Part shown: positions 59,291 through 60,226 of the stretch, one piece after another
Layout of the letters: every line of letters begins with the position of its first letter
Position numbering within the stretch: the first letter of the stretch is position 1
Assembly: GCA_963975985.1 (NCBI GenBank)
Contig: CAXBIY010000001.1
Coordinates: forward strand, 179,020-243,019
Reading direction: 5' to 3'
Length of the DNA: 64,000 bases
Source: an uncultured Gammaproteobacteria bacterium
GTDB taxonomy: Bacteria > Pseudomonadota > Gammaproteobacteria > JABDGN01
The notes under the pieces: model-generated
Told to the model about the DNA's origin: nothing
Database searches by the model: none
What the model saw: only the letters and a program-made list of their open reading frames with translations
Translations under genes and position numbers: made by a program

Positions 59291-59460
59291 AAAAAATGCC
59301 GCTATCGGTTTCCCGGTAGCGGCTGGAATTGCGTTTACGCCTGGTTATTATTATCGATTTTATTATTATTATTTCCTAACGCACGGTTGATAATACAGGT
59401 GCAATCTTAACGAAACCTTAAAGTGGTTGAATTAATATTATTTATTTTTATAGGGAAAAT
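59291..59460 (-). ncRNA. Tandem unit 1 of 4: candidate small RNA ending in an intrinsic terminator (GCCGCTACCGGGAAACCGATAGCGGC + T7) on the minus strand
   Basis: Plus strand shows A-run + hairpin at 59291-59323; conserved block TAACGCACGGTTGATAATACAGGTGCAATCTTAACGAAACCTTAAAG at 59377-59423. Confidence 0.3.
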
Positions 59461-59645
59461 AAGGCAAAAAAATGCCGCTATCAGTTTCCCGGTAGCGGCT
59501 GCAATTGCGTTTAAGCTTCGTTATTATTATTCGCTTTGTTGTTATTCTTATTCCCTAACGCACTATCGATAATACAGGTGCAATCTTAACGAAACATTAA
59601 AGTGTTCAAATGAATAACATTTGTTTTATGTGTGTCGAAGCAGAG
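59461..59645 (-). ncRNA. Tandem unit 2 of 4 (same architecture)
   Basis: Hairpin at 59474-59499 after an A-run; conserved block present. Confidence 0.3.
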
Positions 59646-59650
59646 AAAAT

Positions 59651-59876
59651 AAGGCAAAAAAATACCGCTATCAGTTTTCCTGTAGCGGCTGCAATGGCGT
59701 TTAAGCTTCGTTATTATTATTCGCGTTGTTATTATTGTTATGCCCTAACGCACGATTGATAATACAGGTGTAATCTTAACGTAACATTAAATTGTTCAAA
59801 TTAATTACATTTATTTTTTTAACAGCACTTACGCAAAATGCAATCGGTTCGCCACTCTGCTTTAGTCCAGGTTGTA
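59651..59876 (-). ncRNA. Tandem unit 3 of 4 (hairpin slightly degenerate)
   Basis: Hairpin at 59664-59689; conserved block with a few substitutions. Confidence 0.25.
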
Positions 59877-60010
59877 CTGGATCCCGCGATCAAGCCGCGG
59901 GATGACGGCAGTCTTGTCGTTGTGCTTGGACGAACAGTCCGGTCATTGTGCCGTTTGACGGCGGAACGACGAACAGCCTCGTCATTCCGCGGCTTGACCG
60001 CGGAATCCAG
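59877..60010. repeat. REP-like cluster inserted between tandem units 3 and 4
   Basis: CTGGATCCCGCGATCAAGCCGCGGGATGACGG and GTCATTCCGCGGCTTGACCGCGGAATCCAGG. Confidence 0.85.
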
Positions 60011-60071
60011 GAAAACAATAAGGATACATAAGCGCTGTTAAAGATGAATGGCGTGTTAACAGGAAACATCA

Positions 60072-60226
60072 GGCAAAAAAATGCCGCTATCGGTTTCCCG
60101 GTAGCGGCTGGAATGCGTTTACGCCTGGTTGTTATTATCAAGTTTTTATTATTATCACTTCCTAACGCACGGTTGATAATACAGGTGCAATCTTAACGAA
60201 ACCTTAAAGCGGTTCAATTAATACTT
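60072..60226 (-). ncRNA. Tandem unit 4 of 4
   Basis: Hairpin at 60084-60109 after an A-run; conserved block at 60161-60207. Confidence 0.3.

What the first reader, a model, noticed from the sequence alone, without database searches (positions are those of the whole stretch)
59291..60226. Tandem array of four ~180-bp units, each with a minus-strand intrinsic terminator: candidate multi-copy sRNA locus
Seen directly: four units (59291-59460, 59461-59645, 59651-59876, 60072-60226). On the minus strand each ends with GCCGCTACCGGGAAACCGATAGCGGC followed by seven T, a textbook Rho-independent terminator. Each contains a 48-bp block conserved at over 90% (TAACGCACGGTTGATAATACAGGTGCAATCTTAACGAAACCTTAAAG) and an (AAT)n-rich variable segment. 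No ORF spans a unit. A REP cluster has inserted between units 3 and 4. The array lies between the batD-like gene and the start of a 501-aa unknown protein. Inference: each unit is a ~100-130-nt sRNA gene (promoter in the conserved block, terminator at the hairpin), like multi-copy Qrr or PrrF sRNAs; alternatively they are iterated terminator/attenuator modules. The conserved block contains CTTAA half-sites 11 bp apart, possibly a regulator-binding site.
Basis: partly seen in the sequence, partly recalled or inferred. Interest (0 to 1): 0.7.

Follow-up and report, generated by a model that had tools for sequence, protein, structure and literature searches.

The report
Four tandem regulator-driven small RNA genes
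An uncultured marine gammaproteobacterium carries four tandem copies of a new, roughly 95-base small RNA gene, each with its own regulator-dependent promoter and its own terminator; this is a fresh example of a known kind of "sibling sRNA" locus.

Summary
The four repeats are real. They are also present, almost unchanged, in an independent assembly of a second strain.

On the minus strand each unit is a complete small transcription unit:
- **Promoter.** A direct repeat TTAAK-N6-TTAAG sits 7 bp upstream of a TATTAT -10 hexamer, with no -35. A published Legionella PmrA promoter matrix scores the units 23-25 bits; the best score in 100 shuffles of the window was 18.9. U1 and U4 also match the Pseudomonas BqsR box exactly.
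- **Transcript.** About 94-98 nt, with two runs of AAN triplets.
- **Terminator.** A strong intrinsic terminator, -15 to -19 kcal/mol.

Promoter and terminator are the best-conserved segments (95% and 93%), while the flanks have decayed (52-58%). Frame-breaking indels argue against coding.

The adjacent orphan gene has the same box geometry, and an (AAN)7 run lies just before its start codon.

No Rfam family matches. Only one distant, loosely similar unit was found elsewhere, also directly after batD.

Best reading: sibling sRNAs under a PmrA/BqsR-type response regulator. An Hfq-binding or decoy role is only inferred. There are no expression data, and the regulator gene was not found in the DNA I could reach.

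The parts
60176..60208 (-). U4 promoter: tTTAAGgTT-tc-gTTAAGaTT, then 7 nt, then TATTAT. It begins 19 nt after the batD stop codon.
   Evidence: Scores 23.0 bits with the L. pneumophila PmrA matrix. Exact match to the BqsR box TTAAG-N6-TTAAG.
60075..60170 (-). U4 predicted sRNA, about 96 nt. It has the 5' end GUGCGUUAGG, AAN runs, a hairpin at 60083-60108, then A and U7.
   Evidence: The start site is inferred from the -10 position.
59871..60016 (.). REP-like palindromic elements lying between the U4 terminator and the U3 promoter.
   Evidence: Inverted repeat I1 and tandem copies. 18 copies of the core in the window.
59759..59791 (-). U3 promoter box plus -10 hexamer.
   Evidence: 25.0 bits. 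In the second strain a T-to-C change raises it to 28.4 bits.
59656..59753 (-). U3 predicted sRNA, about 98 nt. Hairpin at 59664-59689, then A and U7.
59569..59601 (-). U2 promoter box plus -10 hexamer.
   Evidence: 25.4 bits, the best hit in the window.
59466..59563 (-). U2 predicted sRNA, about 98 nt. Hairpin at 59474-59499, then A and U7.
59390..59422 (-). U1 promoter box plus -10 hexamer.
   Evidence: 23.0 bits. Exact TTAAG-N6-TTAAG.
59291..59384 (-). U1 predicted sRNA, about 94 nt. Hairpin at 59298-59323, then A and U6.
59242..59274 (-). Distal TTAAT-N6-TTAAT repeat just after the U1 terminator, with no usable -10 hexamer.
   Evidence: 13.2 bits. Pattern hit.
59191..59223 (-). Promoter of the 501-aa orphan gene, with the same geometry: aTTAAGgaT-tt-gTTAAGtTT, then 7 nt, then TAAAGT.
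   Evidence: 16.7 bits, which lies within the upper range of the shuffles. Exact TTAAG-N6-TTAAG. Kept in the second strain.
59156..59176 (-). (AAN)7 run AACAACAAUAAUAAAAAGAAG in the mRNA leader, ending 4 nt before the ATG of the orphan gene.
   Evidence: Longest AAN run in the window. Direct-repeat family D5 links it to the A-rich part of U1.
57646..59151 (-). 501-aa orphan gene, probably co-regulated with the sRNAs.
   Evidence: No Pfam hit. It finds only itself among 5.8 billion proteins. The second strain carries a highly divergent allele.
60227..61927 (-). batD-like gene, the last gene of the moxR/bat operon. Its nearest terminator downstream is that of U4.
   Evidence: Pfam BatD and DUF7939. 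Operon context.

Best explanation
The locus holds four sibling small-RNA genes on the minus strand.

**Anatomy of each unit**
- **Promoter.** It has no -35 element. In its place is a head-to-tail direct repeat (TTAAK-N6-TTAAG, 11-bp period) ending 7 bp upstream of a TATTAT -10 hexamer. This is the layout used by OmpR-family response regulators of the PmrA/BqsR/QseB group to recruit RNA polymerase.
- **Transcript.** Transcription should start about 6-8 nt after the hexamer, at the invariant GUGCGUUAGG, and stop at a strong intrinsic terminator. That gives RNAs of about 94-98 nt.
- **Predicted fold.** A 5-bp clamp (GCGUU with AACGC) encloses a single-stranded loop of about 45 nt made of two AAN-triplet runs. 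The terminator hairpin and U tail follow.

**Regulation (inferred).** The neighbouring orphan gene has the same box geometry, so all five units should switch on together when the cognate two-component system is activated.

**Function (inferred).** The A-rich loop plus the U tail is the signature of RNAs that bind Hfq on its distal and proximal faces. The same AAN motif lies over the ribosome-binding region of the orphan mRNA. The RNAs therefore most plausibly act in one of two ways. They could be Hfq-dependent (class II-like) regulators. Or they could be decoys that compete with that mRNA leader for an A-rich-motif binder, as CrcZ does for Hfq.

**Shown versus inferred.** Shown here: the repeat anatomy, the promoter-matrix match, the terminators, the conservation pattern and the lack of a conserved reading frame. 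Inferred: transcription, the identity of the regulator, the RNA ends, and the Hfq or decoy mechanism.
For: **Promoter**
- The L. pneumophila PmrA matrix (Burstein 2009, PMC2701608, Table S5) has the form cTTAATaTT-N2-cTTAATaTT-N7-TATAAT. It scores the four units 23.0-25.4 bits.
- In 100 Markov shuffles of the 64-kb window the best score averaged 14.0 (sd 2.1) and never exceeded 18.9.
- TTAAK-N6-TTAAK occurs 9 times in the window against 1.45 expected. Six of the nine lie on the minus strand at 59207-60207.
- U1, U4 and the orphan-gene promoter match the P. aeruginosa BqsR box TTAAG-N6-TTAAG exactly (PMC12632288). The Salmonella/Klebsiella PmrA box is CTTAAG-N5-xTTAAT (PMC3973317).
- A metagenome scan with the box returned 96 sites. 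Nearly all have a complete -10 hexamer followed by a Shine-Dalgarno sequence and ATG. Several precede OmpR-family regulator genes whose best NCBIfam matches are QseB/PmrA, below the curated cutoffs. So the box behaves as a real promoter type in nature.

**Terminators**
- -14.9 to -18.8 kcal/mol, z-scores -4.6 to -5.6, followed by A and then U6-7.
- The substitutions in U2 and U3 keep the pairing.

**Selection**
- Mean pairwise identity by segment:

| Segment | Identity |
|---|---|
| Box plus -10 | 95% |
| Terminator | 93% |
| 5' end | 89% |
| 3' body | 83% |
| A-rich part | 73% |
| Upstream flank | 58% |
| Downstream flank | 52% |

- All four units are retained in a second strain.

**Non-coding**
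- The minus-strand transcript has no start codon in any conserved frame (sequence).
- The plus-strand ORFs change frame between units through 1-nt and 2-nt indels.

**A-rich motif**
- 25 runs of (AAN)>=4 in the window against 10.6 +/- 3.1 expected. Seven of them lie on the minus strand at 59156-60153.
- The longest, (AAN)7, ends 4 nt before the orphan gene's ATG.

**A possible relative**
- In L007 (BatD 42% identical) a box scoring 19.2 bits starts 5 nt after the batD stop codon. An A-rich RNA of about 90 nt and a -15.7 kcal/mol terminator follow, and then an unrelated orphan gene.
Against: - There are no expression data of any kind.
- No PmrA/BasR, Hfq or CsrA homologue was found in the roughly 70 kb of this genome I could read. 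The regulator and the proposed RNA partner are therefore unverified.
- ArgS places the organism nearest to Oceanospirillales-like gammaproteobacteria at only 58-64% identity. Using a Legionella matrix is thus an extrapolation. PmrA-, BqsR- and QseB-type regulators share this box and cannot be told apart.
- No base pair shows compensatory change. The 5-bp clamp is invariant, which is uninformative.
- The excess of variation at the N position of the AAN triplets is only a trend: 5 of 10 N columns vary against 4 of 20 A columns, my count from the alignment.
- nhmmer with the unit profile does not recover the L007 unit. Similarity there is limited to the box, the position and the general architecture.
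- An RNA-duplex scan of translation-initiation regions in the window found nothing better than shuffled controls.
- The orphan-gene promoter score of 16.7 bits lies inside the shuffle range.
Confidence: 0.6

Rival explanations
1. The units act in cis or at the DNA level. They would be duplicated copies of the orphan gene's promoter and leader that gained a terminator. As such they could insulate the orphan gene from read-through out of the bat operon. They could also form an array of five high-affinity regulator sites that titrates the regulator or concentrates it in front of the gene. On this view the short RNAs are by-products.
For: - The orphan gene has the same box geometry and an AAN-rich leader like the units.
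- There is no terminator between batD and U4, so the U4 hairpin must also end the bat operon transcript.
- No trans target was found.
Against: - One terminator would be enough for insulation.
- The transcribed 5' end (89%) and 3' body (83%) are conserved well above the flanks (52-58%). A pure DNA-site array does not predict this.
- L007 has a single unit with a different RNA body that is still terminated.
Confidence: 0.15
2. A type I toxin-antitoxin array like Ibs/Sib (the E. coli QUAD repeats). The plus strand would encode very hydrophobic mini-proteins: MRLRLVIIIDFIIIIS, MRLSFVIIIRFVVILIP and MRLRLVVIIKFLLLSLPNARLIIQVQS. The minus-strand RNAs would be fully complementary antitoxins.
For: - NTT codons opposite the AAN runs give Ile/Val/Leu/Phe-rich peptides. 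Most variation falls on the first codon position, which is conservative for the peptide (sequence).
- Tandem arrays are typical of such loci (my knowledge of Ibs/Sib).
Against: - The start codon is TTG in U1 and U2, ATG in U4 and absent in U3 (TGG).
- No Shine-Dalgarno sequence lies at a workable distance.
- A 2-nt indel shifts the frame in U4 relative to U1.
- A charged residue (D, R or K) sits in the middle of the supposed membrane helix.
- Third codon positions are almost invariably T instead of drifting.
- There is no conserved plus-strand promoter: matrix scores on the plus strand are 13.5 or lower and inconsistent between units, and sigma-70 hits are at the chance level.
- There is no plus-strand terminator.
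Confidence: 0.05
3. CsrA/RsmA-titrating RNAs like RsmX, which also occurs in several tandem copies. Each unit offers a GGA motif at the 5' end (AGGA or AGGGA) and a second one at the terminator loop (CGGGAAACCG).
For: - A GGA motif is present at the 5' end of U1, U2 and U4 and in the terminator loop of U1, U2 and U4.
- Tandem multi-copy Rsm RNAs exist (my knowledge).
Against: - There are at most two GGA motifs per RNA.
- U3 has AGGGC at the 5' end and AGGAAAAC in the loop.
- The loop GGA is partly inside the stem and forms a GAAA tetraloop.
- No Rfam Rsm or Csr family scores at all.
- No GacA/LetA-type upstream box is present.
- No csrA was found in the DNA I could reach.
Confidence: 0.05
4. 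Small protein genes on the plus strand, as in the public annotation, which calls a 50-aa ORF inside U4.
For: Mechanical ORFs of 49-62 aa span the units. A gene was called there in two public records.
Against: - The reading frames differ between units.
- Each ORF runs through the hairpin and the promoter box.
- Pfam and NCBIfam were not run on these ORFs. No family membership is expected for such repeats.
Confidence: 0.03
5. A dispersed mobile repeat (MITE- or REP-like) that happens to contain a hairpin.
For: A true REP-like element has been inserted inside the array.
Against: - The unit occurs only at this locus within the 64 kb.
- Exact-core scans of 185,579 species genomes and of the JGI metagenomes found no real copy.
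- The copies are head-to-tail, without terminal inverted repeats.
Confidence: 0.02

Closest known systems
OmrA/OmrB of enterobacteria (tandem sibling sRNAs activated by EnvZ-OmpR)
   Same: - Adjacent paralogous sRNA genes of about 80-100 nt.
- Each has its own OmpR-family-dependent promoter and its own terminator.
- The paralogues share conserved ends and differ in the middle.

This comparison rests on my knowledge of the system.
   Different: - No sequence or Rfam similarity.
- Four copies here instead of two.
- A different regulator box (TTAAG repeat).
- An AAN-rich body.
LhrC1-5 of Listeria monocytogenes (tandem sRNA array under the LisRK two-component system)
   Same: A tandem array of four or more sibling sRNAs of about 100 nt, switched on by a two-component system. 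This rests on my knowledge of the system.
   Different: - LhrC belongs to a Gram-positive organism.
- LhrC RNAs use CU-rich seed loops, not A-rich tracts.
- No sequence relation.
PmrA-dependent promoters of Legionella/Coxiella, the enterobacterial PmrA box and the Pseudomonas BqsR box
   Same: - Direct-repeat sequence, 11-bp period and the 7-bp distance to the -10 hexamer all match.
- As in Legionella, orphan effector-like genes in the window carry the same box.
   Different: - Known regulon members are protein-coding genes. Here the box drives short terminated RNAs.
- Only 1 of 96 similar boxes found in metagenomes does the same.
- The organism is not demonstrably a member of Legionellales.
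CrcZ/CrcY/CrcX of Pseudomonas (A-rich-motif RNAs that sequester Hfq/Crc)
   Same: - Repeated AAnAAnAA-type motifs in unstructured RNA.
- The same kind of motif lies at the ribosome-binding region of a neighbouring mRNA.
- More than one gene copy occurs in some species.
- Two weak Rfam CrcZ matches fall on the AAU runs.
   Different: - Those matches score about 15 bits against a gathering score of 95.
- CrcZ is about 400 nt with six motifs and is driven by sigma-54 with CbrB.
- These RNAs are about 95 nt, carry two runs each, and have a sigma-70-type, response-regulator-dependent promoter.
Qrr1-5 and PrrF1/2
   Same: Multi-copy sRNAs of about 100 nt with individual promoters and terminators. 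PrrF1 and PrrF2 are also in tandem.
   Different: - No Rfam hit.
- No sigma-54 -24/-12 element and no Fur box. The spacing was checked on the sequence.
- Unrelated RNA sequence.
Sib/Ibs (QUAD repeats) type I toxin-antitoxin loci
   Same: Tandem units of about 180 bp in which an sRNA lies opposite a potential hydrophobic mini-ORF.
   Different: The mini-ORF lacks a conserved start codon, a Shine-Dalgarno sequence and a conserved frame.

Membership tests
PmrA/BqsR-type response-regulator-dependent promoter | Two head-to-tail half-sites (c)TTAA(T/G) with an 11-bp period | tested here: met
   All four units and the orphan-gene promoter have it. U1, U4 and the orphan promoter equal TTAAG-N6-TTAAG.
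PmrA/BqsR-type response-regulator-dependent promoter | A fixed 7-bp distance from the second repeat to a -10 hexamer, with no -35 (Legionella matrix) | tested here: met
   Scores of 23.0-25.4 bits with the full 33-nt matrix, against a top shuffle score of 18.9. No TTGACA-like hexamer lies at 16-18 bp (sequence; the scan does not place a promoter at the boxes).
PmrA/BqsR-type response-regulator-dependent promoter | A cognate PmrA/BqsR/QseB-type regulator is encoded in the genome | not testable with these tools
   None was found in the window or in L005 and L010.
PmrA/BqsR-type response-regulator-dependent promoter | Regulator-dependent transcription and binding | not testable with these tools
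   Needs EMSA, footprinting or reporter assays.
Independent sRNA gene (trans-acting, Hfq class II-like) | Own promoter and own Rho-independent terminator bounding a non-coding transcript of 50-300 nt | tested here: met
   This is predicted, not observed.
Independent sRNA gene (trans-acting, Hfq class II-like) | A single-stranded (ARN)n tract together with a 3' U tail | tested here: met
   Runs of 3-6 AAN triplets are unpaired in the minimum-free-energy and consensus folds. The tail is U6-7.
Independent sRNA gene (trans-acting, Hfq class II-like) | Hfq present and bound, with identified mRNA targets | tested here: inconclusive
   No hfq lies in the reachable DNA. The target scan within the window was no better than shuffled controls.
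Any Rfam 15 family (including Qrr, PrrF, CrcZ, RsmX/Y/Z, Sib, OmrA-B) | A covariance-model score at or above the gathering threshold | tested here: not met
   The only hit in the window is a tRNA. At E <= 10 the best hits in the region score 14-20 bits against thresholds of 40-376.
CrcZ-like Hfq sponge | Several A-rich AAnAAnAA motifs, plus the same motif at the ribosome-binding region of target mRNAs | tested here: met
   Two runs per RNA and eight across the array. An (AAN)7 run ends 4 nt before the orphan gene's ATG.
CrcZ-like Hfq sponge | A sigma-54 promoter with CbrB upstream sites, and an RNA of about 400 nt | tested here: not met
   The promoter is of the -10 plus response-regulator-box type, and the RNA is about 95 nt.
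Ibs/Sib type I toxin-antitoxin | A conserved 18-19-aa hydrophobic ORF with ATG and Shine-Dalgarno sequence on the strand opposite the sRNA | tested here: not met
   Start codons are TTG, TTG, none and ATG. There is no Shine-Dalgarno sequence, and a frameshift separates U1 from U4.
Homologous sRNA family shared with L007 | Detectable sequence similarity of the transcribed part | tested here: not met
   nhmmer finds only box matches. What is shared is the position after batD, the box, the length, the A-richness and a short AAACGCA(A)T(T)CC stretch.

The most novel reading that the evidence does not exclude
The array is a dosage-amplified RNA decoy built from the promoter and leader of the neighbouring hypervariable, effector-like gene. 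Under one PmrA/BqsR-type signal the cell would make the mRNA together with four copies of an RNA that mimics its AAN-rich ribosome-binding leader. These RNAs would pull a repressor (Hfq, or another A-rich-motif binder) off the mRNA. That is a CrcZ-style sponge reinvented locally and wired as a feed-forward loop inside a host-interaction regulon of an uncultured marine bacterium.
Probability: 0.15. Interest if true: 0.7.

Novelty: new member of a known kind. Interest (0 to 1): 0.45.

Why it matters
- **A testable regulon for an uncultured lineage.** The closest BatD is 48% identical and the closest ArgS 64%. The locus would supply a defined box, four sRNAs and at least one or two orphan, effector-like target genes.
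- **Regulatory RNAs under this box type.** I know of no earlier report of PmrA/BqsR-type boxes, known from virulence and envelope or metal-stress regulons, driving regulatory RNAs.
- **A case of sRNA origin.** The similarity between the sRNA bodies and the neighbouring mRNA leader suggests that new sRNAs, possibly protein sponges, can arise by duplicating a promoter and leader and capturing a terminator.
- **An annotation correction.** The 50-aa 'gene' called inside U4 in the public records is probably spurious.

Tried and rejected
1. **Rfam.** The permissive search of the region and the gathering-threshold search of the whole window found nothing except a tRNA.
2. **Exact-core scan of 185,579 species genomes.** It gave only four single, chance-like hits, in Pelagibacteraceae and a Eubacteriales MAG.
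3. **First metagenome scan.** The pattern covered the -10 hexamer and the sRNA 5' end and found nothing.
4. **Second metagenome scan.** The box pattern returned 96 promoters. Only the contig already known (L057, the same contig as L007) has a terminated short RNA.
5. **nhmmer with the unit profile over all loci.** Only box matches.
6. **Synteny search downstream of batD.** Five further relatives (L006, L008, L107, L108, L109) have no unit and no box.
7. **Organism name.** Cluster look-ups gave none. ArgS homologues indicate only a deep gammaproteobacterial lineage near Oceanospirillales-like taxa.
8. **tblastn for Hfq, CsrA and BasR** in the window and related loci. No hits, using query sequences written from memory.
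9. **Alternative promoters, checked by eye on the sequence.** Sigma-54 has the wrong GG/GC spacing and the GG is absent in U2 and U3. FliA, RpoE and RpoH consensus sequences fit poorly. An ArcA-like GTTAA repeat fits only the second half-site. All were rejected.
10. **Minus-strand Asn-rich peptide** (…NNNNKIDNNNQA*). Rejected because it has no start codon.
11. **Covariation test.** Uninformative, because no pair changes on both sides.
12. **RNA-duplex target scan of 56 translation-initiation regions.** No better than shuffled sRNA.
13. **Homology between the orphan genes that follow batD in three genomes.** None found.
14. **A leader-mimic parallel in L007.** Dropped, because an in-frame upstream ATG probably places that A-rich run inside the coding region.
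Full report

Yes. The region 59281-60260 holds four head-to-tail units, which I call U1 to U4 in order of increasing coordinate.
- The repeat tools recover them as 4-copy families, with start-to-start spacings of about 177, 190 and 418 bp.
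- A MAFFT alignment of the minus-strand units gives a mean column identity of 81%. U1 is closest to U4, and U2 to U3.
- The 24-nt core GATAATACAGGTGCAATCTTAACG occurs four times in 64 kb with at most one mismatch, where none is expected. The hairpin occurs three times with at most one mismatch, and U3 carries four changes.
- The wider gap between U3 and U4 is filled by REP-like palindromes (59871-60016). Their core has 18 copies elsewhere in the window.
- The flanks are a BatD-domain gene (60227-61927) and a 501-aa ORF (57646-59151), both on the minus strand.
- The window is identical to a Tara Oceans metagenome scaffold.
- A second, independently assembled strain (L010), 98.4-99.6% identical in the flanks, keeps all four units with only a handful of substitutions inside the array. 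The array is therefore neither an assembly artefact nor a very recent accident.

The main ones:
- Mechanical plus-strand ORFs of 49-62 aa do span the units, and one was annotated as a gene in the public records.
- The RNAs would be about 94-98 nt, not 100-130 nt.

**2. What is the conserved block?**

Read on the minus strand, it is tTTAAGgTT-tc-gTTAAGaTT-GCACCTG-TATTAT.
- The published position matrix for PmrA-dependent promoters of Legionella pneumophila (Burstein et al. 2009, PMC2701608, Table S5) is cTTAATaTT-N2-cTTAATaTT-N7-TATAAT. The repeat, the 11-bp period and the 7-bp distance to the -10 hexamer all match.
- Scoring the whole window on both strands with that matrix puts the four units first, at 25.4, 25.0, 23.0 and 23.0 bits. 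One hundred first-order Markov shuffles of the window gave a best score of 14.0 +/- 2.1, and never more than 18.9.
- The simple pattern TTAAK-N6-TTAAK occurs nine times against 1.45 expected. Six of these lie on the minus strand between 59207 and 60207.
- The same repeat is the Salmonella/Klebsiella PmrA box (CTTAAG-N5-xTTAAT; PMC3973317). It is also, letter for letter in U1 and U4, the Pseudomonas aeruginosa BqsR/CarR box TTAAG-N6-TTAAG (PMC12632288).

I therefore call it a PmrA/BqsR/QseB-type box and leave the exact regulator open.

**3. Does this box behave as a promoter in nature?**

I scanned the JGI metagenomes with TTAAKNTTNCGTTAAGNTTN7TAT, which returned 96 sites.
- Almost all show a complete TATnnT hexamer, although only TAT was specified.
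- They are followed after 25-50 nt by a Shine-Dalgarno sequence and a start codon.
- Several precede OmpR-family response-regulator genes. For the L036 regulator the best NCBIfam matches are QseB and PmrA, below the curated cutoffs. For the L052 type the best match is a heavy-metal response-regulator family, with PmrA among the top hits. This is consistent with autoregulated two-component operons.
- Only one of the 96 sites is followed by a strong terminator within 90 nt. That site is the L007 contig described in section 8. Short terminated RNAs under this box are therefore unusual.

**4. The rest of the unit**

- Six to eight nucleotides after the -10 hexamer lies the invariant GUGCGUUAGG.
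- Two runs of AAN triplets follow: 4-6 triplets, a short variable linker, then 3-4 more.
- Next come a conserved UAAACGC and a hairpin of -14.9 to -18.8 kcal/mol (z-scores -4.6 to -5.6), followed by A and then U6-7.
- The substitutions in U2 (C to U, giving a G-U pair) and U3 (two changes that shift the register) keep the stem.
- RNAalifold predicts a 5-bp clamp, GCGUU with AACGC, that closes a mostly unpaired A-rich loop. All of these pairs are invariant, so there is no covariation evidence either way.

**5. Selection pattern**

Mean pairwise identity among the four paralogues, by segment:

| Segment | Identity |
|---|---|
| Box plus -10 | 95% |
| Terminator | 93% |
| Transcribed 5' end | 89% |
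| 3' body | 83% |
| A-rich segment | 73% |
| 40 bp upstream | 58% |
| Beyond the terminator | 52% |

This is the profile of a maintained transcription unit, not of uniformly decaying duplicates. In the second strain one of the few substitutions in the array changes the first box base of U3 from T to the consensus C, raising the score to 28.4 bits.

**6. Coding or not?**

- On the minus strand the transcript has no AUG, GUG or UUG in a conserved frame (sequence).
- On the plus strand the AAN runs read as NTT codons (Ile, Val, Leu, Phe). They could encode hydrophobic peptides of 16-27 aa, reminiscent of Ibs toxins.
- Against that reading: the start codon is TTG, TTG, none and ATG in the four units, and no Shine-Dalgarno sequence is suitably placed.
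- A charged residue varies in mid-helix, and 1-nt and 2-nt indels separate U1 from U4 inside the ORFs.
- There is no consistent plus-strand promoter.

I rate the type I toxin-antitoxin reading at about 5%.

**7. The neighbouring gene**

- The 501-aa ORF has no Pfam domain and finds only itself among 5.8 billion proteins.
- Its promoter has the same geometry: aTTAAGgaT-tt-gTTAAGtTT-TGATCGC-TAAAGT. It scores 16.7 bits, which on its own lies within the shuffle range.
- The longest AAN run in the window, AACAACAAUAAUAAAAAGAAG, ends 4 nt before its ATG.
- Overall the window has 25 runs of (AAN)>=4 against 10.6 +/- 3.1 expected. Seven of them lie on the minus strand between 59156 and 60153.
- The units therefore look like copies of this gene's promoter and leader in which a terminator replaces the ORF.
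- In the second strain the promoter, the leader and the first codons are conserved. The protein itself is only 40% identical at the N-terminus and about 23% at the C-terminus.
- A second orphan ORF (18277-19791, 504 aa, no Pfam hit) also has a well-placed box scoring 16.5 bits.

**8. Relatives**

- The lineage is poorly sampled. The best BatD homologues are 48%, 42% and 38% identical.
- The best ArgS homologue is 64% identical. Named hits at 58-60% are Marinobacterium, Oceanospirillaceae and unclassified Gammaproteobacteria.
- In L007 (BatD 42% identical; an NCBI assembly also present in the metagenome set) a box scoring 19.2 bits starts 5 nt after the batD stop codon.
- An A-rich RNA of about 90 nt follows, with a 5' hairpin and a -15.7 kcal/mol terminator. 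After it come weaker boxes and an unrelated 758-aa orphan gene.
- The L007 unit shares position, promoter type, size and A-richness with the units here, but no detectable sequence homology of the RNA body.
- Five other batD contexts have nothing comparable.

**9. Mechanism**

Directly supported: four autonomous units with a response-regulator-type promoter and an intrinsic terminator, non-coding, under purifying selection, next to a gene with the same promoter type.

Inferred:
- The units are transcribed, and are co-induced with the orphan gene by a PmrA/BqsR-type two-component system.
- U4 also terminates the bat operon, so it resembles the sRNAs that have their own promoter inside an mRNA 3' region.

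Most speculative: the function. Unpaired (ARN)n tracts together with a U tail are the known Hfq distal-face and proximal-face signature of class II sRNAs, and of the Hfq sponge CrcZ (established knowledge). The same motif sits on the neighbouring mRNA's ribosome-binding region. Hence the proposal of an Hfq-dependent regulator or a leader-mimicking decoy.

Against this proposal:
- No hfq or regulator gene was found in the reachable DNA.
- No target stood out within the window.
- The bias of variation towards the N position of AAN is only a trend.

**10. Comparison and novelty**

- Functionally the locus works like the sibling-sRNA loci OmrA/B (OmpR-dependent) and LhrC1-5 (LisRK-dependent).
- Its promoter works like PmrA/BqsR regulon promoters.
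- It is not a member of Qrr, PrrF, CrcZ, Rsm, Sib or any other Rfam 15 family.

It is a new sRNA family of restricted distribution, and so a new member of a known kind.

**11. Verdict**

Interest is moderate at 0.45. The anatomy is clean and immediately testable, and there is an attractive but unproven decoy idea. The system lies in an uncultured organism and has no expression data.

Noticed in passing
window 57646-59151 (-); L010 4358-5876: The orphan gene next to the array is hypervariable between two strains whose flanks are 98.4-99.6% identical. The promoter, the leader and the first codons are conserved, but the protein is only about 40% identical at the N-terminus and about 23% at the C-terminus. 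In L010 it is split into two ORFs. In three related genomes the gene that follows batD is a different orphan each time.
   Followed up: partly
window 19821-19853 (-), upstream of ORF 18277-19791 (-): A second well-placed PmrA/BqsR-like box (GTTAAGGTT-tt-ATTGATTTT-N7-TAAACT, 16.5 bits) lies about 30 nt upstream of a 504-aa orphan ORF with no Pfam hit. A 411-aa ORF with no Pfam hit follows at 16792-18027. These are possible members of the same regulon.
   Followed up: partly
window 59242-59274 (-): An extra TTAAT-N6-TTAAT repeat (13.2 bits) lies between the U1 terminator and the orphan-gene promoter, with no usable -10 hexamer. It could be a vestigial unit or an additional regulator site.
   Followed up: no
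window, 18 sites (for example 10042-10622, 15621-15700, 21359-21452, 53187, 59890-59997, 63878-63957): A REP-like palindromic element with the core TCAAGCCGCGGGATGACGG is scattered through intergenic regions, often in inverted pairs. Mechanical ORFs across it read ...DPAVKPRDDG...
   Followed up: partly
window 38146-42044 (+): Four consecutive paralogous OmpA-like beta-barrel outer-membrane protein genes (205-241 aa) are followed by a 211-aa ORF with no Pfam hit.
   Followed up: no
window 6896-9370 (+); L005 1-870: An 824-aa ankyrin-repeat protein lies in the window, and an OTU-domain protein lies just beyond its end. Together with several orphan ORFs of about 400-500 aa, these eukaryote-like proteins hint at a host-associated lifestyle. 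The rest of the window is ordinary housekeeping (atp operon, gshA/gshB, metK, argS, lexA, pilT-like).
   Followed up: partly
window 25007-25023: A perfect palindrome, TTAATGCGACATTAAT, overlaps the start of the ATP synthase b subunit gene (25001-25471). It scores 16.6 bits with the PmrA matrix but lies on the wrong strand for a promoter.
   Followed up: no
L005 8953-9105 and L010 3286-3438 (window 60044-60196, +): The public gene calls include a 50-aa ORF that runs through the U4 terminator hairpin and promoter box. It is probably a spurious call.
   Followed up: yes
metagenome loci L012, L052, L067, L069, L070, L096, L106 and L036: The same box (GTTAATATTGCGTTAAGGTT-N7-TATGAT) lies directly upstream of OmpR-family response-regulator genes (MRVLIVEDD...) in several metagenomes. 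This suggests autoregulated PmrA/QseB-like systems. Many other hits precede orphan or very large proteins, for example a 1547-aa ORF in L043.
   Followed up: partly
L007 2067-2099 and 2291-2323 (+): After its single sRNA-like unit, the L007 contig has two weaker boxes (14.7 and 13.4 bits) ahead of a 758-aa orphan gene. This parallels the layout in the window.
   Followed up: no
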